In this document: positions 7,813 to 22,200 of the stretch, piece by piece
Layout: the number at the start of each line of letters is the position of its first letter
Position numbering within the stretch: the stretch's first letter is position 1
Assembly (NCBI GenBank): GCA_964536725.1
Contig: CAZHYJ010000001.1
Location: forward strand, 53,018-117,017
Direction: 5' to 3'
DNA: 64,000 bases
Origin: an uncultured Gammaproteobacteria bacterium
GTDB lineage: Bacteria > Patescibacteriota > Patescibacteriia > Magasanikbacterales > GWA2-37-8
Notes under the pieces: model-generated
What the model was told of the DNA's origin: nothing
Databases searched by the model: none
What the model saw: only the letters and a program-made list of their open reading frames with translations
Made by a program: the position numbers and the translations under genes

Positions 7813-7832
7813 AAGTCGTCAAATAAAACTTG

Positions 7833-7906
7833 CGGGTATAGTATAACGGCTATTATGCGTCCTTGCCAAGGACGAGTCACGGGTTCGACTCCCGTTACCC
7901 GCTCCA
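7833..7906 (+). tRNA. tRNA-Gly (anticodon GCC), CCA encoded. Its 3' end overlaps the 3' end of the serine recombinase gene on the opposite strand.
   Basis: Acceptor GCGGGTA/TACCCGC; anticodon stem CGTCC/GGACG; loop TTGCCAA; T-arm ACGGG-TTCGACT-CCCGT; then TCCA. Confidence 0.85.
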
Positions 7907-9483
7907 ATGTGAATAAACAGCTTGAAAAGAGCTGTTTTTTCTTTTATCTTCGCAATAAATTGTCGGTTCTAACATGGCCTTTTGAAGGACTTCATCCTTT
8001 AAACCTTCACGCAAAGTTAAGTATGGTTTTTGCAGTTCAATATGCAGTTTTTTGTCCTTTAAATAAAAGTTCTGACCGAGCGTTCGTAAAATATCGGTTT
8101 TAATCTGTATGTCTCCGGCCTCAAATTTGATTTTGGCATAGGTGGCAAACTCAAAAGCACCTTCCGTTAATTCTACCCATTCATTGACCCCTGTCTCAAT
8201 TTCTCTTATCACACCCTCAATTCGCGCCTTCTCCGTCATTAAGGAATTTTTCTGTTCTCTATATTCGTTATCACTTAAAAATGTTCGGTCAGCGTTACTC
8301 GGTGATATAAACAAATTTATTAAATTATCTATGCTTTTAAGGCAGTTGTTATAATTTTCTTGTTGAGCCTTTAATACAATCTCCCGGTTCTTTTCCTCAA
8401 TAATATTTCTGTTCCTTAATATTTCAACAGCCCAATGCAAAAATTCTTCCGGTATAGTAATGGCATCTAGATAGGTAGAAATTTGTTTTAGAATTTCCTC
8501 ACTGGTTATTGATTTTTGGCTGCATGTCTTACCACATTTATTATGCGAGCAATGGTGGTAAAGATGTCTTTTAATACTTCCGTCCTTCATCTTTTTAAAT
8601 TTTTCTTCGGCAGTTATCATACCATCGCATTCAGCACAACGGATTATTCCATTAAAAGGTAACCTTTTATATTTAGGCCGTGGTTTTCCGCTCTGCCCTA
8701 ATATTTTTTGTGCCAAATCAAACTGTTCTTTCGTGATCATTGGTTCATGTTTGCCTTCGTATATTTTTCCATTATAAACAAATTCACCACAATAAAAAGA
8801 ATTGGTAAATATTTTATACATTGCACTTAAACATAATGGCTGGCCATCTTTGTTTCTCAATCCATACTCATTGCATACTATCTGATGAATTTGATTAACG
8901 GAGTAGTTGCCGGTTAGCAATAACCCCCAGGCTTTTTTTACCAACTCAAATTTTGATTCGTCTTTAAATAATCTTTTTTTACCTTTTTCTCCTGCTTTAT
9001 CGTTTAGATATCCGATAGCAGCAATGCCCGGTCTCCATCCTTTTTCAACTTTTGTATTCATTCCTCGCTTAACATCCTTGCTTAAGTCAAGGACATACTG
9101 GTTGGCCATGCCAAACTCAACAGCCATCATCAATATGTTGTCGGTGGGTAAGTATTCTCTACCAGGCGTAACAATTGATTTTATTATCCCTTGTTGTAAA
9201 AGCCATTGTATCTCACCGCCATCAATTGGATTTCTGGCTAGACGGTTTAATTTCCAACAAACCACACCATCTGCTTCGCCGCGTTTTATCATTTTCATCA
9301 TTTCATCATATTGTGGTCTACCTGGTTTCTTTGCCGACATTGATTCGCCAAATGTTTTGATAATATTTAAGCCTTTTCTTTTAACTTCATATCCTAACTC
9401 CTTTTTTTGATCATCAATAGATTGAACTTGACGATCTTCGGAATCAGTAGATTTTCTACAATACATGATATAGCGTAATGACA
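7895..9483 (-). CDS. Large serine recombinase (resolvase-type N-domain, recombinase domain and zinc-ribbon), integrase of an integrated element
   Basis: N-terminal ..YCRKSTDSEDRQVQSIDDQ.. holds the catalytic-Ser region. ..VVCWKLNRLARNPIDGGEI.. and a Cys cluster (..CAECDGM...HHCSHNKCGKTC..) follow. The ORF is open to 9541; the likely start is MSLRYIMYC at 9483. Confidence 0.8.
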
Positions 9484-9510
9484 TATAATTTAATTTTAAT
9501 AATAAATAAA

Positions 9511-9630
9511 AGGACGGTCTGGTTGACCCAACTCTATACATTCCGAAGGAATGATATCGCTGGCAGACCGCCCTTTTATGGCAGTGATATCAAAAAATAA
9601 AACCTTCGGATAGATTATAGGTTGGGTCAA
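9511..9630. repeat. Nested inverted repeats just upstream of the recombinase start: GTTGACCCAAC/GTTGGGTCAAC, CCGAAGG/CCTTCGG, GGACGGTCTGG/~GGCAGACCGCC
   Basis: Seen directly. Candidate operator or recombinase-binding site. Confidence 0.4.
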
Positions 9631-9706
9631 CGGATATATTATAGCATATGATTTTAGTTATTTCTATATTATCTGGACTTAAAAAAGTAAACCAAAGTAA
9701 ACAGAA

Positions 9707-10105
9707 TTATGGCGGTCTTTCAAACCCTTGAATCTCTCTCAACAGGCGATGTCCTTGTTGTTTTGCTGTTTTGGGACTAAATCCTGCCCGAATTGCCGCC
9801 TCTTTGGCATTGCCTAATGTTGCTATGTAGTTATGCAAAAAACGTAGTCTCCGCAAACAAGGCCCATTAAACGCTGGAAGGCGCTTCACAATTGTGTTGT
9901 TCATGACATAGTCTGCAATATAAAAAAATACTAATTTATTTGGTTTGCAAAAGATAAGATCCCTTATAAAACGTATCTCTTGAATATTAAACCTTGGTAG
10001 TTTTTTAGGTTTTTTAAAATCGTCTGATAGATATAATGTATTTAAACACTCTATAAGAAATTTGGTGCTATAAGTCGTTTCCTTCTTGGTGTGGGTTTGT
10101 TTCAT
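9707..10105 (-). CDS. Protein with a C-terminal terminase-small-subunit-like HTH
   Basis: ..IATLGNAKEAAIRAGFSPKTAKQQGHRLL.. resembles the Terminase_2 N-terminal DNA-binding motif. Confidence 0.4.
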   Translation of the reverse strand: MKQTHTKKETTYSTKFLIECLNTLYLSDDFKKPKKLPRFNIQEIRFIRDLIFCKPNKLVFFYIADYVMNNTIVKRLPAFNGPCLRRLRFLHNYIATLGNAKEAAIRAGFSPKTAKQQGHRLLREIQGFERPP

Positions 10106-10250
10106 AGAGATAGTTTTTAATAATTAAATTTAAAATATCCGTCATTACCGAACCTTTGGAGGCGGCAACAACTTTAAGTTCCTTATGCAACTCCTTATCA
10201 ATACGAACTTGTTTTGTATTGTTTTTATTATTTTGTAACTTTGTTGACAT
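10068..10250 (-). CDS. Ribbon-helix-helix (CopG/Arc-like) DNA-binding protein
   Basis: MSTKLQNNKNNTKQVRIDKELHKELKVVAASKGSVMTDILNLIIKNYL is an RHH-like beta-strand followed by two helices. The ORF is open upstream only because of the G/C-rich leader. Confidence 0.45.
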   Translation of the reverse strand: MSTKLQNNKNNTKQVRIDKELHKELKVVAASKGSVMTDILNLIIKNYLYETNPHQEGNDL

Positions 10251-10262
10251 ATTATTACCATC

Positions 10263-10334
10263 ACCCTTCCCTAGATAACCCTCTCCCTCCCTGCACTCCC
10301 TCAACCCGAATGTCCTACTTGTCCTGTCCCTCCC
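10263..10334 (-). promoter_or_regulatory. G-tract-rich leader (GGGAGGGAGAGGG..GGG..GGG on the minus strand) upstream of the RHH gene; potential G-quadruplex or i-motif
   Basis: There are at least six C3 tracts on the plus strand within 70 nt, in otherwise AT-rich DNA. Confidence 0.35.
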
Positions 10335-10548
10335 GTAAAGAGTCTCGTCTTTACTCAAAGGTTTGGTTAGTTTGGTCATTTTAAGTGAAAAATTTTTCAC
10401 TCATTCGGTATATCGGTCGTTTGGTCGGTCGCCCATAATCTCTGCTAAATTTTATTTTATATCGTTTTAGCCAGCGCTATGGGTGCGCCCTCATACGATA
10501 AGGTTCAAAGTCCTGATCTATTTCTTTGTTAGAAATAAGTCGGGGCTT

Positions 10549-10812
10549 TTAACTTTGGGATATGTTGTTAAGCCATTTTAAATTAGCCTGTGGCACAAAA
10601 TTTAAGATAGCATTCGGCATAGCAGCCCCTCCGCTCACAAACTCTCGGCCAGCTATTTTGTTCTTCTTGGTCTCTCTCATCCAGCGACATTTGTCTTGTG
10701 TGCTACCGCTTCTTAAATTTAAATCAGGATCCAGTGGACAAAGATTTTGAGAACAGGAGTTAAAATTTGGGCAATGACGTAAATTATCAACGGCGTTTAA
10801 TTCTTTTGTCAT
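10549..10812 (-). CDS. Hypothetical small Cys-containing protein (CPNFNSCSQNLCPLD...C)
   Basis: ORF only. Possible zinc-binding motif. Confidence 0.3.
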   Translation of the reverse strand: MTKELNAVDNLRHCPNFNSCSQNLCPLDPDLNLRSGSTQDKCRWMRETKKNKIAGREFVSGGAAMPNAILNFVPQANLKWLNNISQS

Positions 10813-10814
10813 AT

Positions 10815-11000
10815 TTATGTATTATTTTTTGGAGTTAAGCTATGTTTATTATGTTCTGCTTTGGTTATGGGTTGAAAAACTAACTCAACAAGCCGGAGAA
10901 GTTTGATCCCGATTTCACACGCTTCTTTCTTGGTTGTTTCTTTGCCATGTCGTTTGCAAAGAGTTTGAAATTCTAGGATTTCGTCCTCGGACAAGATCAT
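10815..11000 (-). CDS. Hypothetical small protein
   Basis: ORF only. Tightly spaced with its neighbours on the same strand. Confidence 0.3.
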   Translation of the reverse strand: MILSEDEILEFQTLCKRHGKETTKKEACEIGIKLLRLVELVFQPITKAEHNKHSLTPKNNT

Positions 11001-11082
11001 AATTAAAAATCACACTGGGTTATAGTGTGATTATATATGACTTAATTTTGAGTAGTGTGACGATAACTGGCACCAATTAAAA

Positions 11083-11856
11083 TCAGTCACCAAATAACAT
11101 TTTTCTCTTTTTTTGAATTACAGAGTAGATTTTTCTTACAAGTGAGGCTTTACTTGTTTTTTTAAAAAACTTTTTAGCTATTTCTTTACTGGTGTATTGC
11201 TCTAACTTTTTATCTACTTTATATCCATTTTTTTTCTTTATTTTTTCATATTCAGTTTCACTATACTGTTTTTTTAGTATTGATAGATACATACTGGGGT
11301 GTTCAACCCACTCTTTTTTTCTTTTCCGCATTTCCTCTTCAATTTTTATAGCTAAATCTATATCAATTTTGGGTCTTAAATCCAGCGTTACCTTTGATGG
11401 CAAAAATTCTTTTTGTAATTGTAGTAATTTTTTGGTCGCTGCTCTAATTTCTTCTTTTGTTAGCGATGCATATGCTTTAATTGATACCCACTTATTAGAT
11501 CTGTTTCCGCTAGGGTCTGGGCCAAGAGAAACAGCAAAGTTAATTTTAGGAGCATCTATTTTATTAGAAATAATAAAATTTTTTATATGAATCAAAAAAT
11601 TATACCGTAATTGATATTTTTTTGTTAAACTTTCTGCATTATAAAAAAGACCGCTCTCATCCAATAATGATCTTTTGTTTGGGGGAAGCGCGTTTAGGTT
11701 TTTGCCAAGCCAATGTTTTTTTAGTATTTCATTATCAAATCCATGTACAGGAATTTTTATTTTTTTTCTGATCTTTTTAACATCCTCCAAAAATTTTGGA
11801 TGACTTGCGAGCAGTTTCATTATAAACAAATTTTCTTTATATGTTTTTTCAAACAT
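11083..11856 (-). CDS. Hypothetical Lys-rich protein
   Basis: ORF with coherent composition. No recognised motif. Confidence 0.4.
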   Translation of the reverse strand: MFEKTYKENLFIMKLLASHPKFLEDVKKIRKKIKIPVHGFDNEILKKHWLGKNLNALPPNKRSLLDESGLFYNAESLTKKYQLRYNFLIHIKNFIISNKIDAPKINFAVSLGPDPSGNRSNKWVSIKAYASLTKEEIRAATKKLLQLQKEFLPSKVTLDLRPKIDIDLAIKIEEEMRKRKKEWVEHPSMYLSILKKQYSETEYEKIKKKNGYKVDKKLEQYTSKEIAKKFFKKTSKASLVRKIYSVIQKKRKMLFGD

Positions 11857-11883
11857 ATGGTAATTTTAAAAATTATACCTTTG

Positions 11884-11912
11884 TTGACTTGAGGGTAAAT
11901 AAGCTGTAATAT
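11884..11912 (+). promoter_or_regulatory. Promoter (TTGACT-17-TAATAT) reading into the structured RNA region and the first cassette
   Basis: The hexamers are seen directly. Confidence 0.45.
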
Positions 11913-12024
11913 TATGATATTATAATTTAGTATATATTAGCTTAACTACAAAGACAAATTACTAATTACAATACCTAACCCCTAGAGACTTCTGGCGATT
12001 CTTTTCTAGGATATGGTAATCAAA

Positions 12025-12137
12025 CCCTACGCGAATAAAGATGGTCTTCTGACCAGCACTTATTCGCGTAGGTTCACTCCCGAAAGGGGGCGAGGCAGGT
12101 CCGAAAGGATTTGTCGCTGTGTCGGGAGGCCTTTTTT
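12025..12137 (+). ncRNA. Candidate structured RNA: a 14-bp hairpin, then a helix with GAAA tetraloop carrying the SRP-RNA-like motif CAGGUCCGAAAGGA, then GCCUUUUUU
   Basis: The local sequence is GC-rich. Paired arms are CCCTACGCGAATAA/TTATTCGCGTAGG and CTCCCGA/TCGGGAG. A 10-nt direct repeat CCTACGCGAA lies at 12026 and 12167. SRP RNA identity is a guess. Confidence 0.25.
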
Positions 12138-12180
12138 GTTCTCTCGGCGAGCCCTAATTATTAAATCCTACGCGAAAAAT

Positions 12181-12903
12181 ATGAAGAAATATCTTCTAAT
12201 TTTATTCTTGGTAGCAATCATGTTTCCCTCGGTAGCTTTTGCTTCTTGGTGGAATCCTTTTTCTTGGAAAATTTTTAATTCCTCTCACAAAAAAGAAGTA
12301 GTGCTACAGGCACAGGCGGTTAATAATAAACCAGTAGTTAGTCCAACGGTAGAAAACAAAAAACTACAAAATCAAAATTTAAATTTAGAAAAAAAACCAA
12401 AAGAAATCGCTAATGATGAATGGTATAATGTTACAATTTTAACTCCTCCGAACAGAAAATCAGATGATCCACCTGGGGGAATGAAGTTTGAGGTTAAACT
12501 TAAAAATCTAAATGTAACCCCGTTTATTACAAATCTAGGTATCTGTGGATGTACTCTTTCTGATCTGAAAGGGAAAACCTACAGAACTGAATTTTCCGGT
12601 GAAGGTAGATTAAAAAAGGCTTTATTACCAGGAGAGGAAGCCAGCTTAAATTTTTTTAGTACGTTCAGTCATAGAGAATTTGTTAAAAATGGTGAAGTTG
12701 AGTGTCGCGGGGAAAATACTTTAGATTTTATTATGTTGGATTGGAGTAAAAATATAGTTAAGTGTATATATAATCAATCCGGTGAGTGTGCATGTGAAGA
12801 TCTTGGCCCAATGCATGTTGTGAATTGTGATTTCAGTATTTCAACAGATGGCAAGCAAGCTTCTTGCTGGGGCAAATATCCGACGACAGTAAAAATAGAT
12901 TAG
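12181..12903 (+). CDS. Secreted hypothetical protein (signal peptide MKKYLLILFLVAIMFPSVAFA)
   Basis: The ORF is open from 12013, but the N-terminal 56 codons overlap the structured RNA. The likely start is M12181. Confidence 0.5.
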   Translation: MKKYLLILFLVAIMFPSVAFASWWNPFSWKIFNSSHKKEVVLQAQAVNNKPVVSPTVENKKLQNQNLNLEKKPKEIANDEWYNVTILTPPNRKSDDPPGGMKFEVKLKNLNVTPFITNLGICGCTLSDLKGKTYRTEFSGEGRLKKALLPGEEASLNFFSTFSHREFVKNGEVECRGENTLDFIMLDWSKNIVKCIYNQSGECACEDLGPMHVVNCDFSISTDGKQASCWGKYPTTVKID

Positions 12904-12928
12904 GATTTATCCAAATTGCACCAAAATT

Positions 12929-13903
12929 ATGGATGTTAAACAAATCAATGAGTACGCTGAAAAATTGTGTAGTGTTATTAAACTCTATTACCTAAAGGAT
13001 TATTGTGATAATGATAAAAACTGGTTTAGTGCCTGCCAATTATCAATGCGTAATTTTGTTTTGTCTCGTAATGGGTGGCTTAAAAGTGATAAATCTGAAG
13101 ATACTTTGGTATTTGCTGGCAAACACCACTTAACGGTAAATATACTCTACAGCGGCTCACCGGGTGAGCTCATGCTAAATACAGCAATCGGTATTGCCAA
13201 AGCAGAGTTAATTGATAATTTTAACACCAATGGAAAAAATACGCTTGAAGACACTGTAACAAACATTGAAAAATGTGTTAGAGGTCAGGATTGGATAATA
13301 CCATTTGTGCGTAATAAACATTTTACCCAAAACAATAATAAAAATATGAACAAACACACCTCTATTCTTCGTTGGCTCTCAATAATACCAGTGGTTTTTA
13401 CAATTGTTTATTTATCGGATTGGATTGTAAGATTTATTTTATGGTTTTTGCGTTTACCAATAATTATATTTGAAAAGATTTTTGGTTTTGGTTCCGGCCC
13501 AATTGGAAAATTGTTTGATAATATAACAAATTTTCTTTTTGGACTTAATAGTATTGGCACTTTGACCGTAATTTTTTCTGGTCTACTAACAATGTCAGCA
13601 ATTGTTTATCTTTTGGCCATTATTATACCTAAAGACAATAAATCTACCGCACGAACATTGGCAATAATTTTATTGACTTTTTTCGCTATTAGTTTAGTTG
13701 CCACTTTTTTATCTAACAGAATGACAGGAGAAGTCATACTATATACAATCGTTTTAACAACGGGAGCTATTTTGGGGTGGAATTCAATTAAAAAAGAGAC
13801 AGAAAAAGAAAGGGAAAAACATGAGTATCTGGTTCAAAAATATATTAAGCGTATTTTTATTTTTACAACTCTGTTTACGGTATTTTTGTTATTTTTTTCT
13901 TGA
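12929..13903 (+). CDS. Hypothetical protein with a soluble N-domain and a C-terminal multi-TM region
   Basis: ORF. Several hydrophobic helices lie in the C-terminal half. Confidence 0.5.
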   Translation: MDVKQINEYAEKLCSVIKLYYLKDYCDNDKNWFSACQLSMRNFVLSRNGWLKSDKSEDTLVFAGKHHLTVNILYSGSPGELMLNTAIGIAKAELIDNFNTNGKNTLEDTVTNIEKCVRGQDWIIPFVRNKHFTQNNNKNMNKHTSILRWLSIIPVVFTIVYLSDWIVRFILWFLRLPIIIFEKIFGFGSGPIGKLFDNITNFLFGLNSIGTLTVIFSGLLTMSAIVYLLAIIIPKDNKSTARTLAIILLTFFAISLVATFLSNRMTGEVILYTIVLTTGAILGWNSIKKETEKEREKHEYLVQKYIKRIFIFTTLFTVFLLFFS

Positions 13904-13953
13904 GATAAGGTAGGTTCATTATTTGGAGTGTGTTATAGTGGTACATTAACTTT

Positions 13954-14445
13954 ATGAAAGGTAAGCACGAAAAATATATAGTATTATTCTTTTTCGGCGT
14001 TGTCGCAATAGCTGGTATTGTTATTTATAACAACAATAAAATAAACAGCTTTTCAAATTCACTTACCGTAAACGCACAAGCCAATAATAAAGCAGTAGAA
14101 CAACAAGTAAATAATGGCTGGGAAGACTGTGAAAATTATAAAGATATAGAAATTTTTAAAAAACCAAAACAGATTGTCTGGTTAGCCAAAATGAATGGTT
14201 GTCTAGAGAGTTGCCAAGGAGGGTCTTTTACCAGTATAGAAGCAGGAGTTGAATACCCAAGGTTTGCCGCCTATCTACCAGATGGCGAAAAAATACCCGA
14301 GGAGTATAAGGATAAAAATGATCTAGTTTTAAAGATAGTCGGCGAATGGATCGGCATTGGCGACGATTATTACAATACCGTTTTTAGTGGTCAATGCGTG
14401 CCTATAATTACAATTAAAAGCGTTACACCGGCAGCAAACATTTGA
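13954..14445 (+). CDS. Hypothetical membrane-anchored protein
   Basis: N-terminal TM helix; Cys-containing ectodomain. Confidence 0.45.
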   Translation: MKGKHEKYIVLFFFGVVAIAGIVIYNNNKINSFSNSLTVNAQANNKAVEQQVNNGWEDCENYKDIEIFKKPKQIVWLAKMNGCLESCQGGSFTSIEAGVEYPRFAAYLPDGEKIPEEYKDKNDLVLKIVGEWIGIGDDYYNTVFSGQCVPIITIKSVTPAANI

Positions 14446-14491
14446 TAGATTTGGATATCTGTATAATCGTAGTAACTAAAGCCTAAAAAAT

Positions 14492-14785
14492 GTGAAAAAA
14501 ATATTTCTCTATATATTTTGGACGATGATGCTAATATTTATCGCGGTAGCGCTAATTTATGGGTTTATAACTTATTCCATCTTTAAGGTAGATTCAAGTG
14601 GGCTGATTTATGATGGTCTTGGCAGACAACTTTATGAAGCGCCTCTTTGGGCGAAGTTTTTATTATTGAACGAACACCGGTGGCCTGGTTTATTTTGGAC
14701 AATATTTGATAGAGCAGCATGTGTTTGTTTTGGCAGTTTGGCATATATAATGCATAAACTTGCAACAAAAATGAGCATTGAATAA
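14492..14785 (+). CDS. Hypothetical small membrane protein
   Basis: Two predicted TM helices. Confidence 0.4.
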   Translation: MKKIFLYIFWTMMLIFIAVALIYGFITYSIFKVDSSGLIYDGLGRQLYEAPLWAKFLLLNEHRWPGLFWTIFDRAACVCFGSLAYIMHKLATKMSIE

Positions 14786-14803
14786 AAATTTGTATCAAGT
14801 ACT

Positions 14804-15289
14804 ATGCCCATCCTCTCAACGTTTTACACCATAGTAATTCCAATTGAAAACTTAAAAAGAGTCTTAACTGATGAGGAATTACAAAAAGCCTTGGCCGAAA
14901 AGAATTATCTGACCATGGTTAGGTTTGATGATAATTTATATAGTGAATCCACAATGGGCCCTTATGATAATGAAATTGTTATTAAGTATTGGGAAAGCAA
15001 GGGTTTAATTCCGACAGAAATAGTTAATGGAGAAGAGCGTTGGAAAGATCTGTGTCTGGTGGCTGCACCCGATAATCAGCCGACAGCACCTTGTGATTGG
15101 GTTGAAATCTTCTCTGTTGATGAATATAACAGCTATATTAACTTGAAAGGAAAACCAAGAGATCTTCTAGTAAAACAAACATCTTCGGTTGAAGAATTTG
15201 CGAAAGCATTAAAATACACGAAACAAGAATTGCAGCAACTCCTTCACAACAGGCCTATAACAAAAAAAGTCTGTTTTAGAGATTATTGA
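14804..15289 (+). CDS. Hypothetical cytoplasmic protein
   Basis: ORF only. Confidence 0.45.
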   Translation: MPILSTFYTIVIPIENLKRVLTDEELQKALAEKNYLTMVRFDDNLYSESTMGPYDNEIVIKYWESKGLIPTEIVNGEERWKDLCLVAAPDNQPTAPCDWVEIFSVDEYNSYINLKGKPRDLLVKQTSSVEEFAKALKYTKQELQQLLHNRPITKKVCFRDY

Positions 15290-15353
15290 GTGTCTTCTAA
15301 ATTAGGTTGACTTACCCATGTTGTTAGGCTAACATAAAGCCGTAAAACACTTT

Positions 15354-15749
15354 ATGAAAAAGGCCTATCTAACTTTTCTATTTTTATTCATTTTTCTTCC
15401 ATCGGTAACCTTGGCCCACCCCGGACGCACGGATTCTTCTGGTTGCCATACTTGTCGCACAAATTGTGCTAAATGGGGGCTTTCTACGGGCGAATATCAT
15501 TGTCATAGGGCAAAGACACTCCCGCAGCCAAAAGAGCCCATTAAAAGCCATTTTAGCGAGACTGGTGGGTATATCACGCCGGCACCGGAGTATAAACAAC
15601 CTGCCACTAATATTAAAAAGGCAGTTACGACAACCGCCGAAGTTAAGCCGGTAGTAAAACAGGTTGAAGTTAAATCAACTGCTAAACAAGCAGAGGTTAA
15701 AGTGAGCGAATCGTGGTTTACTAAGTTGGTTAGATTTTTGTTTAAATAA
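15354..15749 (+). CDS. Secreted protein with a Cys/His motif (..GRTDSSGCHTCRTNCAKWGLSTGEYHCH..) and a Lys/Val-rich repetitive tail
   Basis: Signal peptide; GxCHxC...YHCH metal-binding-like motif. Confidence 0.45.
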   Translation: MKKAYLTFLFLFIFLPSVTLAHPGRTDSSGCHTCRTNCAKWGLSTGEYHCHRAKTLPQPKEPIKSHFSETGGYITPAPEYKQPATNIKKAVTTTAEVKPVVKQVEVKSTAKQAEVKVSESWFTKLVRFLFK

Positions 15750-15750
15750 T

Positions 15751-16482
15751 ATGGAAAAAATTAGCCTTATAGCACAAGTATTCTTAGTTTTAATAACTAT
15801 AGCGGGCTGGTTTGCCGTCTACTACCTAAATTTAAAACAACAACGGAAAAATTTGGAAGATAACGCAAAATATAGGGTTTATGAAAAATTTTGGTCGTCA
15901 AGAGGACTTATATATAGCACACATAATCAATTAAGTAGCCAAATATTTGTGGGCCCGCCATTTATTCTAATGGATTCCACAAAAATTCTTGGGCAAGTCA
16001 CGAACAGGCAGGAAGATGTGTGGAAAGGACAACAGAACGCTATACAGATCTTTTTTGAATATCGGAATAAATTAGCGTCGTTAAATGAAAATTTTAATGA
16101 CACATATCTACAATTTTGGAGAGATGTTGAAATGTGGTTACATGTAATGCCAGACCTTGAACAATCGGCAAAGATTCTTTTTTCTGAATATACTATTACA
16201 AAAGATTTAGTTTACAAACATATTAGTTATTTACAGATTCTTGACGCTCAAAAATGGGAGACATTTAATCGCAACGATATCAAAGAAAGAGCAGAGACGG
16301 TATGGGGTAGTATGTCTAACCTCAGTGCTTACACGGAGGATTTTATGGCGTTAATTCACAACGAGCTTGTTGGTCCGTTATTTAAGTACAAAAAAACTGT
16401 CAGGGTCCCAATGGATCAGAGATATAAAGTGTTAACTAAAGATGGTTTGAAAATTATTGATAGTGCACATAGCATAAAATGA
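15751..16482 (+). CDS. Hypothetical protein with an N-terminal TM helix
   Basis: ORF only. Confidence 0.45.
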   Translation: MEKISLIAQVFLVLITIAGWFAVYYLNLKQQRKNLEDNAKYRVYEKFWSSRGLIYSTHNQLSSQIFVGPPFILMDSTKILGQVTNRQEDVWKGQQNAIQIFFEYRNKLASLNENFNDTYLQFWRDVEMWLHVMPDLEQSAKILFSEYTITKDLVYKHISYLQILDAQKWETFNRNDIKERAETVWGSMSNLSAYTEDFMALIHNELVGPLFKYKKTVRVPMDQRYKVLTKDGLKIIDSAHSIK

Positions 16483-16710
16483 TGATTAAAAGTTATCAAT
16501 ACAAAACTTCGTTTGAGTAGTGGTTATTTGGCACCATTTTTGCATGATGGATGATGGTGTTGCTTTAATGTAAAAAGGGTTGTATACTATAGATAGTGAA
16601 TATTCTTCAATTTTACATGATGTGTTATGTGGTGGGTTCTTTTTAGTGAGTAGGCTTTATAAATATTGACATTTTTTAGTAATTGTGTTTAAATGTTATA
16701 CTAAACTTAT

Positions 16711-17121
16711 ATGGGGAATTTGTCACCACTACAACATAGAATCAACGTAATATTAGCTAATCTCAGAGTGAAATTATTTCCGAGTAATAATTTGATAAAA
16801 GAGGTGCATGTTTGTTGTAACCAAAAATTACCAAAGGATGTTAAGGTGATTTGGAAAAGAGAAGATGATGGTTTTATAGTTGGCCATGTTAATGTAGATG
16901 GTTATGAGTTTACTACCCAAGGTAAAAATGCTAAAGATTTTATAAACATGGTAAATGATGCCATCTACGCTATTTACGAAATCCCCCCACAGTATATTCC
17001 TTATCTTGGTGGTTATCAAAGATATTTTCCTAAACCAGATCAGCTAGAACTGTTAAAAGATAAAAGCATTACAAATTCAACTCTTGGTTTCTATCAAAAC
17101 CAACATTGTCCAGCATCTTAA
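16711..17121 (+). CDS. hicB: HicB-like antitoxin (RNase H-like fold N-domain)
   Basis: ..WKREDDGFIVGHVNVDGYEFTTQGKNAKDFINMVNDAIYAIYE.. matches the HicB N-terminal pattern. It directly precedes the HicA-like gene. Confidence 0.5.
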   Translation: MGNLSPLQHRINVILANLRVKLFPSNNLIKEVHVCCNQKLPKDVKVIWKREDDGFIVGHVNVDGYEFTTQGKNAKDFINMVNDAIYAIYEIPPQYIPYLGGYQRYFPKPDQLELLKDKSITNSTLGFYQNQHCPAS

Positions 17122-17125
17122 GAAT

Positions 17126-17377
17126 ATGGGTGAATTTGCAGATGTAAAAAGAAAGAAAATTTTAAAGCTGCTGAAAAAGTTAGCTCAAATAAATGGCTTT
17201 ACAATCACTACTGGAGGTAATCATCAATGGGTAATTAGGTATACGAGCTGGCAGAGACCTTTCCCAATCCCATTTAAACAAAATAAGTTAAAAAAATGTT
17301 ATATTGAGGATCTTGCAAAGCTGGTCATTGCAACTGGAACATGCACAGAAGAAGTTTTTAAGGAATGGATAGGGTAA
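17126..17377 (+). CDS. hicA: HicA-like mRNA-interferase toxin
   Basis: ..KKILKLLKKLAQINGFTITTGGNHQWVIRYTSWQRPFPIPFKQNKL..DLAKL.. matches the HicA/YcfA pattern. The start is 4 nt after the hicB stop. Confidence 0.55.
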   Translation: MGEFADVKRKKILKLLKKLAQINGFTITTGGNHQWVIRYTSWQRPFPIPFKQNKLKKCYIEDLAKLVIATGTCTEEVFKEWIG

Positions 17378-17437
17378 AATAAAAATAAAATACACCTATT
17401 TTGTGAGTGTATTTTTTAATTTTGTATAAAAAATATA

Positions 17438-17590
17438 GTTCTAACATCCTCTACTAAGGAGCTCACTTTTCGTAAAACACCAAAACTCTGCTAAGTCTGG
17501 CAGAGTTTTTGGTTCTGATATTTGGCATAAGGTACATATATTTACTACCCCTTTGGAGAAAAAATGGCAAGAGTAGAACCGATTGAAAAA
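17438..17590 (+). repeat. Cassette-boundary repeat, copy 1 (long form): GTTCTAACATCCTCT..AAGGAGCTCA box, then hairpin AAAACTCTGC/GCAGAGTTTT with a T-run
   Basis: Near-identical over about 135 nt to the copy at 19598. It contains a tiny SD-ATG ORF (MARVEPIEK..). Confidence 0.6.
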
Positions 17591-17619
17591 GGATTATTTT
17601 TTTGGTATAGTTAATCATA

Positions 17620-18480
17620 ATGACTACTATTTTGAACCCCTGTTATTTTAACCTTTTTATGTATAGCATTCTTTTTCCGTTAATTTTGGTCTTTGTTATT
17701 TATTTTTTGGTAAAAGAATACAAAAGATACAGGTGGCCAAAGGTTTTTTCAAGAAAAATTACAAAAGAGCTGGGGAAACAGTTTGATAAATTGTGGAAAG
17801 CCAAAGATGACGGCCTCCTGGATTTGAAAATTTTTGATTCAGCCAAAAGAGTGTTTGAAAAATATTCTATTTACTTTTCTTCTTCTTTGGAATGGACACC
17901 ACTTCTTAAGAATGACGAAGGCCCAATCGACCCCGACCAGGCTGTGATTTTACGAAAGGAAATGGATAATTATTGGGTCATGGAAAAAAGTGTTATTTGC
18001 GATAATCATGTTTATAAATTTGAAGAAAAGCCCGATGGCGTTTTTATGCTTTTTAGGGATGGAGAATTAATAGGTGAAGTTAAAAGTGGAATTACGGATA
18101 GTAATAAAGTTTGTTTTATAAATCCACCAGACCCTAAATGTTTTTTTAATTCAACGCCATCTTGGGGAGAAGTTTTTGTCTGGAAAGATAACTATATTAT
18201 TAAAAGCTATACAGAGAATAGTGCCACCTTTAAAATCAATAATGACTTTTTAGAACTTCCAAAATCATGGGATGGAAAAATGAAAGCTCATGCTTTTGTT
18301 TTGGATAAAGATGGAGTTGTGGAATCTGCTGTTTTTGAAATCAAAGAAACATTAAATCCCCCGATTCCGCTGGATAATATTTATTGGTGCAAGTATCTTG
18401 GAAATGGAAAATTATCTCCACCAACATTGATTATTTCACAGGCTCATTTGGAAAGCGCGAGTATAAATGAGGTCAATTAA
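17620..18480 (+). CDS. Hypothetical protein with an N-terminal TM segment
   Basis: ORF only. Confidence 0.45.
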   Translation: MTTILNPCYFNLFMYSILFPLILVFVIYFLVKEYKRYRWPKVFSRKITKELGKQFDKLWKAKDDGLLDLKIFDSAKRVFEKYSIYFSSSLEWTPLLKNDEGPIDPDQAVILRKEMDNYWVMEKSVICDNHVYKFEEKPDGVFMLFRDGELIGEVKSGITDSNKVCFINPPDPKCFFNSTPSWGEVFVWKDNYIIKSYTENSATFKINNDFLELPKSWDGKMKAHAFVLDKDGVVESAVFEIKETLNPPIPLDNIYWCKYLGNGKLSPPTLIISQAHLESASINEVN

Positions 18481-18515
18481 ATTTATAGGTAGAAACCAAT
18501 TTATTTTGGTAAACC

Positions 18516-18577
18516 GTTCTAACATCCTCTATCAAGGAGCTCGCCGTAAACTTCGCTTAAACAGCGGGGTTTTTTGT
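18516..18577 (+). repeat. Cassette-boundary repeat, copy 2 (short form): conserved box, then G-U-containing hairpin AAACUUCGC/GCGGGGUUU with a T-run
   Basis: It shares the box and AAACTTCGCTTAAACAGCGGGGTT with the copies at 21124 and 22214. Confidence 0.6.
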
Positions 18578-18612
18578 TATACCCACAAGAAGAGTCGAAC
18601 TAAAACAAAAAA

Positions 18613-18638
18613 CACTCAGTAATTCTGAGAGTTTTTTA
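18613..18638 (+). terminator. Hairpin CTCAG-TAATT-CTGAG followed by AGTTTTTT
   Basis: Seen directly. Confidence 0.4.
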
Positions 18639-18790
18639 TTCCTCAATCACTTCTATAAATAAAAATGATAATCGGAGGGGAGGTCAAGACTTGCGTCACG
18701 ACCCCCGTTGCGAGTGCGTTCGTCAAACCTTGCGGTCTTCAGAACAGCACTGACACAGTTCCCCTCCGAGCGCGCCGGCCGTGTGACCGA

Positions 18791-19336
18791 CTACGCCGGC
18801 TTATCGGCCGACTTCTGCGCGCGCATGACCCGCACGTAGCCGAGCACGTCGGCCCAGCTCGAGACGAAGGCCGGGCCCATCACGTTCTCGTCGTGGACGA
18901 GGCCGTTCTGGGTCCAGAACTCGATCTCGGCGGCGTTGTTGTCGATGACGCCGGGGTCGTGGGGCTCGCGCGGGGCGCTGGGGCCGGGGAAGCTGGTGTA
19001 GAGCTGCCACGACGTGCCGTCGTCCGAGATGCCCGCGATGACCGTGAAGAGGGACGTCGGCTGCTTCTCGATCCCGACGAGGACGTGGCTCGGCACGTCG
19101 CGGCCCTTGCGGAACGCGAAGTACATCTGCCCGTTGTCCACGACGGGGAGGCAGCCGTTGAGGCCGACGATGCGCCCCATGTCGATGGTCGTCAGCAGGA
19201 ACCCCCCGCTCTCGGGCATGGTCACCATGCCGATCGCCTCCTCGAGGAGGGCCATCGCCTCGGGGTGCGCCTCGAGGTGCTTCTGGGTCTGGTCGGACAC
19301 GATGACCTTCTTGCCGCACTTGCTCTGGAATTCCAT
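18791..19336 (-). CDS. Hypothetical protein on a strongly GC-rich (foreign-composition) segment
   Basis: Of three overlapping long ORFs in this segment, only this frame has a balanced amino-acid composition. It also has a GGAGG Shine-Dalgarno 6 nt before the ATG. The segment, about 18.66-19.44 kb, is by eye roughly two-thirds G+C against AT-rich flanks. Confidence 0.55.
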   Translation of the reverse strand: MEFQSKCGKKVIVSDQTQKHLEAHPEAMALLEEAIGMVTMPESGGFLLTTIDMGRIVGLNGCLPVVDNGQMYFAFRKGRDVPSHVLVGIEKQPTSLFTVIAGISDDGTSWQLYTSFPGPSAPREPHDPGVIDNNAAEIEFWTQNGLVHDENVMGPAFVSSWADVLGYVRVMRAQKSADKPA

Positions 19337-19597
19337 CGGAAAACCTCCATTGTGGCCGGATTGGTTGCCGGCACTTGGTTCACTACCCGCCCTAAGAGCG
19401 CGGAATACTTAACGCCAGACTGACGTAAAATACACCGCGTTTTAGTGCAGATGATGTAAGGGAACTGTGTCTTGTAAAGAACAGCGTTCCATTATTAGGA
19501 ACCGAATGGTATAGCATAAAAAGGGATTTTTGTCAAGATTAAGGCTAAAAAATGGCTAATTTAACTGTTTGCACAAACTTCTCTATTTATCAAAGCA

Positions 19598-19731
19598 GTT
19601 CTAACATCATCTACTAAGCAGCTCAGATTTTCAAAAACCTCAAAACTCTGCTAAATCTGGCAGAGTTTTTGGTTCTGATATTTACTACCCCCTTTGGAGA
19701 AAAAATGGCAAGAGTAGAACCGATTGAAAAA
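19598..19731 (+). repeat. Cassette-boundary repeat, copy 3 (long form)
   Basis: Near-identical to copy 1, including the hairpin AAAACTCTGC/GCAGAGTTTT and the tiny ORF MARVEPIEK... Confidence 0.6.
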
Positions 19732-19892
19732 ACTGTAAATATCTGGTAATCTAATATGGTATATTATTTATATGGACAAACAAGAAGAGATTAAAAAAAT
19801 TAGAAAATTAGTTCAGAATAGAATTAAACTAAAAAAAGAACTGGCTAGCTTGCCAGAATTTAAGGAACGATTAAAAAAAGCAAAAGAAAAAT

Positions 19893-21068
19893 ATGAGGCC
19901 AAACAATGAGGGCATATCAATCGGTGCAACAGAACTTTCGCGTGAAAGGGTCCTTGAAATGTCACCAAAAGAATTGGTTGATTATTTTACTCACCTTGAA
20001 GAATCTGGGGGATTAGAAGCATACTTGCAAAGAGCTTCCAAGGATGATGCTTTGGTTGCTATGTTTAGTTATTGGGAAAAGTGGTTGACAAATGATCAGC
20101 GCGCGATGGTTGATGATATTGTAAGACAGAAAAAAGAGTTATATCCTGGAAACAGTGAGTCATTACCACTAGAATTGGAAAAAAGGTTTACTGGAGACGA
20201 ACTTGAAATTATTTTTTCAAATTTATTAGCTATACAACTTACTTTTGGTTGCTCCAAAGGTTGTCCGTTTTGCGGTTTTGATGCGGTTCCTGGCGTAAGA
20301 GAACACATACCTTATTCTCAATTGGCTAATATGTTTCAGAGGTTTGGTAAAGAGATTGGGGAAAGTAAGCCGTTGTTGTATTATGCTTCAGAACCAACCG
20401 ATTACCTCGACGAAGATAATACATACATGGATGTGCATCAGTTGGCAGTAGAGTATGCTAAGTATAAGCCACATGTAACGAGTAAAAATACTGATACTGA
20501 GTGGGTTGATTTTTTATCTAAAAAAGTAAATAAACCAAGAATAAGCTTGTTTGGTGTTCCAGAAGAATCAATATTAAATTTGGAAAGCTTGTCTGCAATC
20601 ACAGGTATTGAATTAGGGGGAAGACAAAAAAAACACTTTGAGGGTTTGGGAGTTTCAAGACAAAAGACAGAAGCGCCATTTAGTGTTGGGATAGGCTGTG
20701 GAAGTGGTATCTTAATTACACCACGAGGTTTGTATAATACTTTAACTTTATCAAGGACCAGCGATAGGTTTCCTCAGGGTATAGCAATTCAACCGTTTGA
20801 AAAAGAAGATGATAATTTTGATATAAAAATAGGGTCAGATGTTGTTGAAATAATGAAGAATACTTTAATAGGCAAGTTGCGTGCCATTACTGGTTTTTTC
20901 TTCGTAAGACAGCATGGTGTAAAAGTGTATGTAAAAGTTAATGACGCTGGTAAAGTTGTTGATTTTTACAAACAAAACGAACCTTGGAACCGGGCTGATC
21001 ACCAGCCATTTTTTGTGGAACTTGTTGATAGGCTCTTAGCGTCTGAGAAAGTAGCTGGTGTAAAATAA
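19893..21068 (+). CDS. Hypothetical protein with a CxxxCxxC motif (..TFGCSKGCPFCGFD..), possible radical SAM-like enzyme
   Basis: Only the CxxxCxxC motif was noted; the remaining radical-SAM signature was not checked. Confidence 0.4.
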   Translation: MRPNNEGISIGATELSRERVLEMSPKELVDYFTHLEESGGLEAYLQRASKDDALVAMFSYWEKWLTNDQRAMVDDIVRQKKELYPGNSESLPLELEKRFTGDELEIIFSNLLAIQLTFGCSKGCPFCGFDAVPGVREHIPYSQLANMFQRFGKEIGESKPLLYYASEPTDYLDEDNTYMDVHQLAVEYAKYKPHVTSKNTDTEWVDFLSKKVNKPRISLFGVPEESILNLESLSAITGIELGGRQKKHFEGLGVSRQKTEAPFSVGIGCGSGILITPRGLYNTLTLSRTSDRFPQGIAIQPFEKEDDNFDIKIGSDVVEIMKNTLIGKLRAITGFFFVRQHGVKVYVKVNDAGKVVDFYKQNEPWNRADHQPFFVELVDRLLASEKVAGVK

Positions 21069-21123
21069 ATAAATTTATTTTTATAAAAAATAGACAGATA
21101 ACAAATTAATTTATAATTAAATT

Positions 21124-21189
21124 GGTTCTAATATCCTCTGCCAAGGAGCTCAGATAAAAACTTCGCTTAAACAGTGGAGTTTTTTCTTA
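21124..21189 (+). repeat. Cassette-boundary repeat, copy 4 (short form)
   Basis: GGTTCTAATATCCTCTGCCAAGGAGCTCAGATAAAAACTTCGCTTAAACAGTGGAGTTTTTT. Confidence 0.6.
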
Positions 21190-21327
21190 ATATGGTATTA
21201 GAGAAGAGTCATATTTTATTGCTTTAAACCGTGAAAAAAGTAGTTTTTCTATATATTTTCACGGTTATATTGACAAAATAGTGAAAATATGCTATAATTG
21301 TATTAGATTCTACATTTAAGTTAGTAT

Positions 21328-22200
21328 ATGGCTAAAATATCTAATGTTTTCAATAAAATAAACGACTTACGTAAACGTTATTATTTAGCGGCTGTTGGCA
21401 GACAATCACTTTTGAAATTAATTAGCGAAACTGAAGTAGCTGAACAAGTTTACAATTCTAATGCTATAGAAAACAGCACTTTGTCCCTTGAAGAAACAGA
21501 AAAAATTCTACTGCAAATAGATCTGGACAGATATATTTCTGAGCGAGAAATTTTTGAAGCTAAAAATTTAGCACGTGTGGTCTCATATATAGATACCAAA
21601 GCTAAAGAAAAAGAACTCGATTTGGATGTTATTTTGATGTTACACAAAATGTTAATTAGTAATATTAGAGAAGACGTAGCGGGACGTTTTAGAAAAGAAA
21701 ATGAGTGGGTGCGAGTTGGTAATCATATAGCAGTTGATCCTAAAGAAATAATTGGTCGCTTAGAAAAAATGCTAGCTGAGTACAATGCCGAGAGCCAAGA
21801 AAATGTTATAAAAAGAATAGCACGTTTGCATTTAGCTTTTGAATACGTTCATCCTTTTGTCGATGGTAATGGTCGAATTGGTAGAGTGTTAAATAATTAT
21901 TTATTGATCAGAGAAGGGTTTGTGCCGATAAATATTAAATTTATTGATAGAAAAATGTATTATGAAGCATTCAAAGAGTTTGACACCAATGAAGCGACGG
22001 GTGTAATGGAGGAGATCGTCGGCCGTGCTTTGACCAATAGTTATCATAAGAGGTTGGCATATTTAGAGAGTAAAAATATTATTACCCTTAAAGAGTACGC
22101 ACAAAAAAATAAAATATCACATTCAAACGCTATCAACAAGGCTACTCGTCAAACTATTGAAGCTTTTTTGGAAAAGGGAATTTGGAAAATTGGAGAATAA
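21328..22200 (+). CDS. Fic/Doc-family protein (putative AMPylase)
   Basis: The canonical Fic motif HPFVDGNGRIGR is present. Confidence 0.8.
   Translation: MAKISNVFNKINDLRKRYYLAAVGRQSLLKLISETEVAEQVYNSNAIENSTLSLEETEKILLQIDLDRYISEREIFEAKNLARVVSYIDTKAKEKELDLDVILMLHKMLISNIREDVAGRFRKENEWVRVGNHIAVDPKEIIGRLEKMLAEYNAESQENVIKRIARLHLAFEYVHPFVDGNGRIGRVLNNYLLIREGFVPINIKFIDRKMYYEAFKEFDTNEATGVMEEIVGRALTNSYHKRLAYLESKNIITLKEYAQKNKISHSNAINKATRQTIEAFLEKGIWKIGE

What the first reader, a model, noticed from the sequence alone, without database searches (positions are those of the whole stretch)
18660..19440. GC-rich foreign gene embedded in the AT-rich cassette array
A segment of about 780 bp is by eye roughly two-thirds G+C, against about 35-40% in the flanks. 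It produces three overlapping long ORFs. Only the minus-strand 181-aa frame has a balanced composition and a GGAGG Shine-Dalgarno. The segment is bracketed by boundary-repeat copies 2 and 3 and by a 9-bp inverted repeat GGAGGGGA/TCCCCTCC at 18674 and 18764. This suggests recent acquisition of a cassette from a high-GC donor, which for an epibiotic CPR lineage could be its actinobacterial host. Misassembly is the alternative.
Basis: seen in the sequence. Interest (0 to 1): 0.7.

Follow-up and report, generated by a model that had tools for sequence, protein, structure and literature searches.

The report
GC-rich mobile gene module in Magasanikbacteria
A real, self-contained 0.9-kb gene unit that uses G or C at 99% of its codon third positions sits in an AT-rich candidate-phyla (CPR) bacterium. 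It is swapped among related CPR bacteria, with no sign that it came from an actinobacterial host, and its message carries conserved RNA folds of unknown role.

Summary
Window ~18672-19440 is 62-70% GC against ~33% in the flanks, and the real gene is the minus-strand 181-aa ORF (18791-19336).

Misassembly is excluded. Contigs from other sequencing runs and from another metagenome reproduce both GC junctions at 99.8-100% identity.

- The host is a Magasanikbacterium, not a Saccharibacterium.
- All close relatives of the protein (phrog_23674 family, unknown function, weak RelE/BECR-like fold) come from CPR genomes or jumbo phages.
- The GC excess is almost entirely synonymous: GC3 is 0.99 and GC2 is 0.41.
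- Divergent CPR alleles also have GC3 of 0.94-0.99, and their synonymous differences are nearly all C<->G.

The gene is the core of a conserved ~0.9-kb module: AT-rich promoter, 165-nt leader, ORF, covarying structured 3' element, terminator. A 12-bp leader/trailer helix encloses the ORF.

In island-free conspecific genomes the module abuts tRNA-Gly directly. In the window a 10.6-kb serine-recombinase island has been inserted between them, and "boundary repeat 2" is that island's right junction.

Alleles are mosaic, so the coding core is exchanged by recombination. Why GC3 is saturated, and what the protein does, remain inferred.

The parts
18791..19336 (-). CDS, 181 aa, phrog_23674 family. 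GC 0.67; GC1/2/3 = 0.62/0.41/0.99; only codons 2 (GAA) and 178 (GAT) end in A or T.
19508..19536 (-). Promoter-like site: TTGACA (19536-19531), 17 nt, TATACC (19513-19508). L020 has TTGACA-17-TATAAT at the aligned place.
   Evidence: Read. Not listed by the consensus scan, which requires T at position 6 of the -10 hexamer.
19337..19500 (-). 5' leader, ~165 nt. Contains a small hairpin with a U-run (19502-19486) and the SD GGAGG (19348-19344). It is 94-98% identical to the conspecific allele L021 over its first ~150 nt, although the CDS is only 71% identical.
19460..19471 (-). 5' arm (GACACAGTTCCC) of the long-range helix that encloses the ORF, at -135 from the ATG.
18752..18763 (-). 3' arm (GGGAACTGTGTC) of the long-range helix, +28 after the stop codon. 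Overlaps the 5' strand of the trailer's outer stem by 4 nt.
18641..18790 (-). Conserved structured 3' element (trailer). Outer 10-bp stem (18672-18681 / 18760-18769), long GNRA-capped hairpin, second hairpin, terminal hairpin and a GAUUGAGG tail.
18604..18640 (.). Terminator-like hairpin with T-runs on both strands; the end of the conserved module.
   Evidence: (I3)
18516..18542 (+). 27-nt repeat core, copy 2 (GTTCTAACATCCTCTATCAAGGAGCTC). This is the right junction of the inserted island, with the crossover at the shared GCTC.
18543..18580 (+). Arm that follows tRNA-Gly directly in island-free genomes (GCCGTAAACTTCGCTTAAACAGCGGGGTTTTTT). Terminator-like hairpin for the tRNA.
19598..19624 (+). 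27-nt repeat core, copy 3, on the right of the module.
7905..18542 (.). 10,638-bp island that is absent from L002 and L021. Carries the large serine recombinase 7895-9541(-), terS-like and ParG-like genes, LOOT RNA, cargo genes and repeat copy 1.
7832..7906 (+). tRNA-Gly(GCC). Its 3' end is the left junction of the island and, in island-free genomes, the direct neighbour of the module.

Best explanation
The GC-rich stretch is the coding core of a self-contained accessory gene module of about 0.9 kb (window ~18604-19537, minus strand). The module has its own AT-rich sigma-70-type promoter, a ~165-nt leader, an ORF with G or C at 99% of third codon positions, a ~150-nt structured 3' element and a terminator.

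Shown:
- The module belongs to a Magasanikbacteria (CPR) genome.
- In genomes of the same species that lack the island, the module lies immediately downstream of tRNA-Gly(GCC), converging on it.
- In the window a 10.6-kb large-serine-recombinase element has integrated at the tRNA 3' end and pushed the module away.
- The module is exchanged among CPR lineages. The coding core has been replaced by recombination within the species, and the same module is found at another locus in another genome.
- GC3 saturation is shared by divergent alleles.

Inferred:
- The GC richness is a long-maintained codon-level property of this gene clade. It is probably held by selection acting on the mRNA or DNA, possibly after an origin in high-GC CPR lineages. 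It is not a fading signature of a recent transfer from a high-GC phylum.
- The transcript folds so that a 12-14 bp helix between the leader and the first nucleotides after the stop codon encloses the whole ORF. By analogy with the hok tac/fbi fold-back, this probably keeps the full-length mRNA stable and poorly translated until it is processed.
- The protein is probably an RNA-acting enzyme, either nuclease-like or RNA-end-modifying. The grounds are its weak RelE/BECR-like core, fusions to HD, tRNA-nucleotidyltransferase and kinase domains, and its position within phage tRNA clusters.
For: Real, not chimeric.

Host: RpoB is 81% identical to named Magasanikbacteria.

Island-free state: L002 joins ...ACCCGCTC|GCCGTAAAC. 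L021 is 99.3% identical to window 5820-7904 over 2085 bp and then carries the module at 75% identity.

Module conservation from promoter to terminator in the window, L020 and L021, AT-rich parts included.

Mosaic alleles: leader is 94-98% identical between the window and L021, while the CDS is 87% between L020 and L021 and 71% between the window and L021.

Codon-level signal: GC1/2/3 is 0.62/0.41/0.99, against a GC3 of ~0.3 in neighbouring genes. GC3 is 0.94-0.99 in seven alleles, on contigs whose flanks range from 0.33 to 0.66 GC. Between alleles, 14-51% of codons with a conserved amino acid differ, almost all by C<->G.

RNA features: the trailer folds at -75 kcal/mol, z = -5.6. Its consensus has 47 pairs, 91.8% of cells paired and 15 pairs changed on both sides, against 2-3 in slid controls and 0 of 500 shuffles. 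The covariance model recovers the untrained L003 trailer. The bracket helix lies at -131..-140 / +19..+28 in the window, L020, L021, L003 and L027, plus L028 with an indel, with different but complementary sequences. It appears in both the MFE and the centroid of the whole transcript, z = -8.2.

hok precedent: PMC9841398.
Against: - Selection on GC3 is inferred, not shown. The same C<->G pattern would arise if all alleles diverged in a high-GC reservoir and entered low-GC genomes recently.
- High-GC Magasanikbacteria do exist: in L003 the housekeeping GC3 is 0.71-0.86. Neighbours of homologs elsewhere are also GC3-rich.
- The CDS is no more structured than synonymous shuffles in the saturated alleles, z = -0.5 to -1.3. 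No specific coding-region RNA structure is therefore indicated.
- The covariation rests on only five or six sequences from about four lineages.
- The promoter was read by eye.
- The SRR118456xx contigs may come from the same project as the window.
Confidence: 0.6

Rival explanations
1. Repeated, recent import from a high-GC CPR gene pool, with no selection on GC3. The clade evolved in high-GC Magasanikbacteria or their mobile elements. Each low-GC genome received its allele too recently for amelioration.
For: In L003 the housekeeping genes have GC3 of 0.71-0.86 and the family gene 0.98. Adjacent Csx3-like, DEAD-helicase and unknown genes in L003, L027 and L028 have GC3 of 0.84-0.96. The trailer model also hits after two other GC-rich genes in L003. 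Allele replacement by recombination is demonstrably frequent.
Against: The promoter and leader that travel with the CDS in the window, L020 and L021 are AT-rich (0.38-0.46 GC) and conserved. At least four low- or medium-GC genomes (window, L021, L020, L013) each hold a saturated allele. Even in L003 the gene exceeds the genomic GC3. No high-GC source closer than 59% identity was found among 5.8 billion proteins.
Confidence: 0.28
2. One reading: a recent transfer from a high-GC non-CPR donor, such as an actinobacterial host of an epibiotic CPR cell.
For: A GC3 of 0.99 is typical of very high-GC Actinobacteria (general knowledge). The gene is a sharp compositional outlier.
Against: The host is a Magasanikbacterium, and I know of no evidence for an actinobacterial host in that lineage. 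None of the named close homologs is actinobacterial. GC1 and GC2 (0.62/0.41) are low for a ~70% GC proteome. The regulatory flanks are AT-rich and conserved among CPR alleles. The same locus in a conspecific genome holds a 75%-identical allele.
Confidence: 0.04
3. The gene is a cassette of an integron-like array, captured by site-specific recombination at the 27-nt repeats by a serine recombinase.
For: Five direct 27-nt cores spaced 1.1-1.5 kb apart, each followed by one gene. Recombination occurs exactly at the core/arm boundary with the tRNA-Gly 3' end. The core is conserved in other CPR genomes.
Against: In island-free genomes the module lies next to tRNA-Gly with no 27-mer on that side, so copy 2 arrived with the island. 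The module is in the opposite orientation and has its own promoter and terminator. L020 carries it with neither a 27-mer nor a tRNA. No tyrosine integrase or attC-type site was found.
Confidence: 0.07
4. Assembly chimera joining a high-GC organism's read into an AT-rich contig.
For: An abrupt GC change within ~30 nt.
Against: Both junctions are reproduced in L001, L002 and L017, the last seen in 3 samples, and L021 has the homologous arrangement. The module's AT-rich and GC-rich parts are co-conserved in three alleles.
Confidence: 0.01

Closest known systems
Compositionally atypical horizontally transferred genes at tRNA-linked hot spots (classical genomic-island and amelioration picture)
   Same: A sharp GC and codon-usage outlier next to a tRNA gene, with strain-variable alleles and integrase-bearing elements alongside.
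   Different: The anomaly is confined to synonymous sites, at saturation (0.99). It is retained across alleles only 44-59% identical in protein, with C<->G turnover, while the co-transferred regulatory DNA is AT-rich. That is not what a decaying donor signature looks like.
Tycheposons and tRNA-targeting integrative elements that build islands (Hackl et al., bioRxiv 10.1101/2020.12.28.424599)
   Same: Integrase-bearing elements, some with large serine recombinases plus terS and primase genes, integrate at tRNA 3' ends. They push older DNA inward and leave repeated att remnants. Conspecific genomes lack the element.
   Different: This is a CPR genome. The repeated 27-mer is not a recognisable partial tRNA, and the spacing is one gene per repeat. 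The GC-rich module itself is not part of the element; it is the displaced neighbour.
hok/Sok type I toxin mRNA with tac/fbi 5'-3' fold-back (PMC9841398)
   Same: A long-distance helix between the 5' leader and the 3' UTR closes the full-length mRNA around the ORF. The gene is solitary, with a toxin-like product.
   Different: The product is a 181-aa soluble protein, not a small membrane peptide. No antisense RNA or overlapping reading frame has been identified. The function of the helix is untested.
RelE/ParE and BECR-fold RNase toxins (CdiA-CT, BrnT, YoeB, colicin E5/D)
phrog_23674 (jumbo-phage hypothetical proteins such as CBB gp601 and GAP32_368)
   Same: Significant profile match (E = 1.7e-16) over residues 2-153.
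   Different: About 30% identity. The phage copies lack the C-terminal helix, the GC3 bias and the flanking RNA elements (the last two not examined in detail).

Membership tests
phrog_23674 / uncharacterised ~170-190-aa family | Significant match to the family profile over most of its length | tested here: met
   E = 1.7e-16, residues 2-153 against profile positions 2-152 of 157. tblastn gives 30% identity to 17 phage records. The profile search finds 1409 representative clusters.
RelE/ParE-BECR RNase toxins | Fold match at a convincing level | tested here: inconclusive
RelE/ParE-BECR RNase toxins | Sequence-profile membership | tested here: not met
   No Pfam, NCBIfam, PADLOC or PDB-sequence hit.
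RelE/ParE-BECR RNase toxins | Adjacent antitoxin or immunity gene | tested here: not met
   The module holds a single ORF. The flanks are non-coding in all loci examined.
RelE/ParE-BECR RNase toxins | RNase activity | not testable with these tools
   Needs biochemistry.
Integron gene cassette | attC site (RYYYAAC ... GTTRRRY imperfect palindrome) at the 3' end of the ORF | tested here: not met
   The 27-mer has no inverted partner, and the trailer's outer stem carries no GTTRRRY.
Integron gene cassette | IntI-type tyrosine recombinase with an adjacent attI | tested here: not met
   Only large serine recombinases were found. There was no Phage_integrase hit among the 33 window ORFs scanned.
Integron gene cassette | Promoterless ORF co-oriented with the array | tested here: not met
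   The gene is in the opposite orientation and has its own promoter-like site and terminator.
tRNA-targeting LSR integrative element (tycheposon-like), for the 7905-18542 island | Integrase gene abutting the 3' end of a tRNA | tested here: met
   LSR 7895-9541(-) overlaps tRNA-Gly 7832-7906. A paralogous LSR sits at tRNA-Met.
tRNA-targeting LSR integrative element (tycheposon-like), for the 7905-18542 island | Empty site in conspecific genomes with a precise junction | tested here: met
   L002 and L021.
tRNA-targeting LSR integrative element (tycheposon-like), for the 7905-18542 island | Excised circular form or attP junction | not tested
   Needs reads or PCR. The predicted junction is ...AAGGAGCTC|CAATGTGAATAAAC.
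hok-like fold-back-controlled toxin mRNA | Conserved 5'UTR-3'UTR helix closing the mRNA | tested here: met
   A 10-14 bp helix at conserved positions in six loci, with differing sequences. Present in the MFE and centroid structures.
hok-like fold-back-controlled toxin mRNA | Small hydrophobic toxin and antisense RNA antitoxin | tested here: not met
   The product is a 181-aa soluble protein. No antisense promoter was identified.
Recent HGT from Actinobacteria | Closest homologs in the proposed donor clade | tested here: not met
   Named close homologs are Magasanikbacteria and Doudnabacteria. The best hit other than the protein itself is 59% identical.
Known Rfam RNA families, for the leader and trailer | Match to any Rfam 15 model | tested here: not met
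   No relevant hit at E <= 10 across 10500-23500.

The most novel reading that the evidence does not exclude
The GC3-saturated ORF, the leader/trailer bracket and the shared structured 3' element define a previously undescribed class of exchangeable gene modules in CPR bacteria.

In this reading the mRNA is compositionally insulated, with no A/U run of three or more, from an A/U-directed RNase. That RNase could be the module's own product or a host or phage enzyme. The mRNA is held inert by a hok-like fold-back until its ends are processed.

In some relatives the ends are set by hammerhead ribozymes instead of terminators. That would give 5'-OH and 2',3'-cyclic-phosphate ends held together by the bracket helix, which could even allow RNA ligation or circularisation.
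Probability: 0.15. Interest if true: 0.8.

Novelty: new variant of a known kind. Interest (0 to 1): 0.55.

Why it matters
If GC3 saturation is actively maintained in AT-rich, genome-reduced CPR bacteria, it is a clean natural case of strong selection on synonymous sites of an accessory gene. It is also a caution against reading every GC island as recent cross-phylum transfer or as evidence for a host-symbiont link.

The module adds a candidate cis-acting RNA architecture to a lineage whose regulation is almost unknown: a leader/trailer helix enclosing the ORF, plus a 3' element shared by several GC-rich genes.

The context gives precise, strain-resolved evidence that large-serine-recombinase elements remodel tRNA-linked islands in CPR genomes.

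Tried and rejected
- Boundary repeats as LOOT RNA: not related. LOOT hits only 11972-12115.
- An overlapping antisense gene as the cause of the GC3 bias: rejected. Antisense frames stay open in all synonymous shuffles.
- Specific RNA structure inside the CDS: not supported for the saturated alleles.
- The 12-bp repeats as transposon ends: unlikely. The conserved module extends beyond both arms, covering the promoter upstream and the trailer and terminator downstream.
- A hammerhead ribozyme in the window: none. The motif exists only in relatives.
- The bracket helix as a general feature of neighbouring GC-rich genes: not significant.
- tRNA-Gly or tRNA-Met 3' fragments as island-end repeats: none found within 3 mismatches.
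- Plasmid collection: one weak hit only.
- IMG/VR contigs: no relative.
- BFVD fold search: nothing significant.
- The AFDB50 fold library was unavailable.
- The second word-index protein search, with a 63-sequence alignment, added almost nothing. Cluster look-ups gave few names.
- Literature searches found no description of GC3-saturated genes or hammerheads in CPR, but the library is incomplete.

Full report
**1. Observation**

The segment is real and sharply bounded. In 200-nt windows the GC content is 0.63-0.70 from 18700 to 19399, against 0.27-0.40 on either side. In 30-nt windows the rise begins at ~18672 and the fall runs from ~19400 to 19470. The overlapping long ORFs exist.

The minus-strand 181-aa ORF (18791-19336) is the gene. 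It has a GGAGG 7 nt before the ATG and homologs in databases. The other frames stay open in every synonymous-codon shuffle, so they are by-products of the codon usage.

Both arms lie 3' of the stop codon, so it does not bracket the segment.

**2. Not a misassembly**

Contigs assembled independently from public runs match the window across both GC transitions:
- L017, seen in three samples, matches 17561-19422 at 100%.
- L001 matches 18274-19447 at 99.8%.
- L002, from SRR29243433 (a different accession series), matches 18539-19549 at 99.9%.

**3. Whose genome, and who has the gene**

RpoB in the window is 95% identical to unnamed metagenome proteins and about 81% identical to many proteins named Candidatus Magasanikbacteria. 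The host is therefore a Magasanikbacterium, not a Saccharibacterium. To my knowledge the epibiont-of-Actinobacteria argument applies only to Saccharibacteria.

The word-index search found 12 homologs. The named ones are from Magasanikbacteria and Doudnabacteria, and another representative is also a Magasanikbacteria protein. An exhaustive profile search found 1409 representative clusters at E <= 1e-3. The family corresponds to phrog_23674 and occurs in Rak2-like jumbo phages and Otagovirus phages at about 30% identity, where it sits among phage tRNA genes.

There is no Pfam, NCBIfam, PADLOC or PDB-sequence match. Some members are fused to HD, tRNA-nucleotidyltransferase domain 2, AAA_33 kinase or HAD domains.

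**4. Nature of the GC excess**

The excess is synonymous. GC1/GC2/GC3 is 0.62/0.41/0.99, against a GC3 of 0.26-0.43 in the other window genes examined. Only codons 2 and 178 end in A or T. No other open frame of at least 80 codons in the window has GC3 above 0.7.

The same saturation is found in relatives on contigs of very different composition:

| Locus | GC3 |
|---|---|
| L020 | 0.99 |
| L021 | 0.99 |
| L003 | 0.98 |
| L027 | 0.97 |
| L013 | 0.97 |
| L028 | 0.94 |
| L007, L012 | ~0.8 |
| L023, L024 | 0.53-0.61 |

Between saturated alleles that share only 44-59% of residues, 19-51% of codons with a conserved amino acid differ, and nearly all of those differences are C<->G. So third positions have turned over while staying G or C.

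**5. The gene is part of a conserved module**

Alignment of the window with L020 and L021 shows conservation from the promoter (TTGACA-17-TATACC in the window, TTGACA-17-TATAAT in L020) to the end of the module. It runs through a ~165-nt leader, the CDS, a ~150-nt trailer, a GAUUGAGG motif and a terminator hairpin (window 19537-18630). The promoter and leader are AT-rich.

The trailer folds at -75 kcal/mol (z = -5.6). Its consensus structure has 47 pairs, with 91.8% of cells paired. Fifteen pairs changed on both sides, against 2-3 in slid controls, and 0 of 500 shuffles reach this. The caveat is that this rests on five sequences.

A covariance model built from those five sequences recovers the untrained L003 trailer (E = 7e-5). 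It also hits downstream of two other GC-rich genes in L003, the M20 peptidase and hyp371. The 3' element is therefore not exclusive to this protein family.

A 12-bp perfect inverted repeat (19471-19460 / 18763-18752) joins the leader, at -135, to the region just after the stop codon, at +28. Helices of 10-14 bp occur at -131..-140 / +19..+28 in L020, L021, L003/L022 and L027, and with an indel in L028. Their sequences differ but remain complementary. More distant members lack it, and so do neighbouring GC-rich genes.

The helix appears in both the MFE and the centroid of the 901-nt transcript, which folds far better than shuffles (z = -8.2). The CDS alone is no more structured than synonymous shuffles.

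**6. Genomic context**

The window has five direct copies of a 27-nt core, at 17438, 18516, 19598, 21125 and 22215. It also has two paralogous large serine recombinases (40% identical), each overlapping the 3' end of a tRNA.

L002 joins the tRNA-Gly(GCC) 3' end directly to the arm that follows core copy 2...ACCCGCTC|GCCGTAAAC. L021 is 99.3% identical to window 5820-7904 (PNPase and both tRNA-Gly genes). It then continues, at the same junction, into a module allele that is only 75% identical in DNA and 55-56% in protein.

It follows that 7905-18542 (10,638 bp) is an insertion between tRNA-Gly and the module, and core copy 2 is its right junction. This resembles the successive tRNA-site integrations described for tycheposons.

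The same 27-mer occurs in other CPR genomes, with sharp edges, and is often followed by the same hairpin arm. No tyrosine integrase was found.

**7. Exchange**

L021's leader is 94-98% identical to the window's, but its CDS is 87% identical to L020's and only 71% to the window's. The breakpoint lies about 55 nt upstream of the ATG. L020 carries the module beside a dnaN-like gene, with neither a tRNA nor a 27-mer. In L013 a homolog again converges on a tRNA 3' end. The coding core therefore moves by recombination among CPR lineages.

**8. Interpretation**

Three of its proposals are not supported: the donor (an actinobacterial host), the timing (recent) and the mechanism (capture as an array cassette).

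My preferred reading is an exchangeable CPR gene module whose GC3 saturation is maintained. The main rival is repeated recent import from high-GC CPR lineages. L003 is such a genome, and GC3-rich Csx3-like, helicase and unknown genes accompany homologs elsewhere.

The bracket helix recalls the hok tac/fbi fold-back that keeps a toxin mRNA closed. That analogy, and the RNA-directed activity of the protein, are inferences.

**9. Side lead**

In L003 the terminal hairpin of the trailer is replaced by a complete type III hammerhead. It matches Rfam RF00008 over the full model at 26.2 bits and a local E of 0.003, which is below the gathering score. A hand-drawn equivalent with different, complementary stems I and III lies about 20 nt upstream of the bracket arm in L028, but Rfam does not call it. 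The window has none.

Noticed in passing
window 11972-12115 (+): Rfam LOOT RNA (RF03000), 63.6 bits against a gathering score of 46.4, full-length match. It lies inside the serine-recombinase island and overlaps the start of ORF 12013-12903. It is unrelated to the boundary repeats.
   Followed up: partly
window 17438-17464, 18516-18542, 19598-19624, 21125-21151, 22215-22241: A 27-nt core, GTTCTAACATCCTCTACTAAGGAGCTC, in five direct copies, each followed by one of two arm types and then one gene. The same core, with sharp edges, is found in other Magasanikbacteria and in a Saccharibacteria MAG (L008-L011). Recombination with the tRNA-Gly 3' end occurs exactly at its right edge. It could be serine-recombinase attR scars or a cassette system; this is unresolved.
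   Followed up: partly
window 17564-17614 and 19705-19749 (+): The long 'type A' arms after repeat copies 1 and 3 (87-89% identical over ~150 nt) carry a conserved GGAG followed by a mini-ORF, MARVEPIEK..., just upstream of the cassette genes. It may be a leader peptide.
   Followed up: no
window 7895-9541 (-) and 22693-24483 (-): Two paralogous large serine recombinases (40% identical), each overlapping the 3' end of a tRNA (Gly-GCC, Met-CAT). They are followed by terS-like and ParG-like genes or by primase genes. This looks like two tandem integrative elements of the same design. Both tRNA/element junctions read CAATGT.
   Followed up: partly
L003 6630-6694 (+); L028 ~2455-2550 (+): Candidate type III hammerhead ribozymes flank homologs of the gene. 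In L003 it replaces the terminal hairpin of the trailer (Rfam 26.2 bits, below the gathering score). In L028 it lies ~20 nt upstream of the bracket arm (hand-drawn, not called by Rfam). Stems I and III differ but remain complementary.
   Followed up: partly
L003 3228-3382 and 5779-5845 (+): The trailer covariance model also matches downstream of an M20 peptidase gene and a 371-aa unknown gene, both GC3-rich (0.86 and 0.96). This suggests a shared 3' element, with a hairpin and a UUGAGG tail, for GC-rich genes in a high-GC Magasanikbacterium.
   Followed up: partly
L007 4265-5754; L012 4089-4430; L028 1689-2321: Homologs of the gene repeatedly sit just downstream of Csx3-like genes and, in L007, a SAVED-domain gene, which are themselves GC3-rich. 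This may indicate a defence-island association for the family.
   Followed up: no
window 21328-22200 (+) and 19893-21068 (+): The neighbouring cassette genes are a Fic/DOC protein, which matches the PADLOC candidates PDC-S04 and SoFic, and a radical-SAM protein. Both have ordinary AT-rich codon usage.
   Followed up: no
L002 end (window 19549) and module end (window ~19537): The island-free contig from SRR29243433 stops 12 nt beyond the module's promoter. This could mark a strain-variable junction at the module boundary, or it could simply be an assembly break.
   Followed up: no
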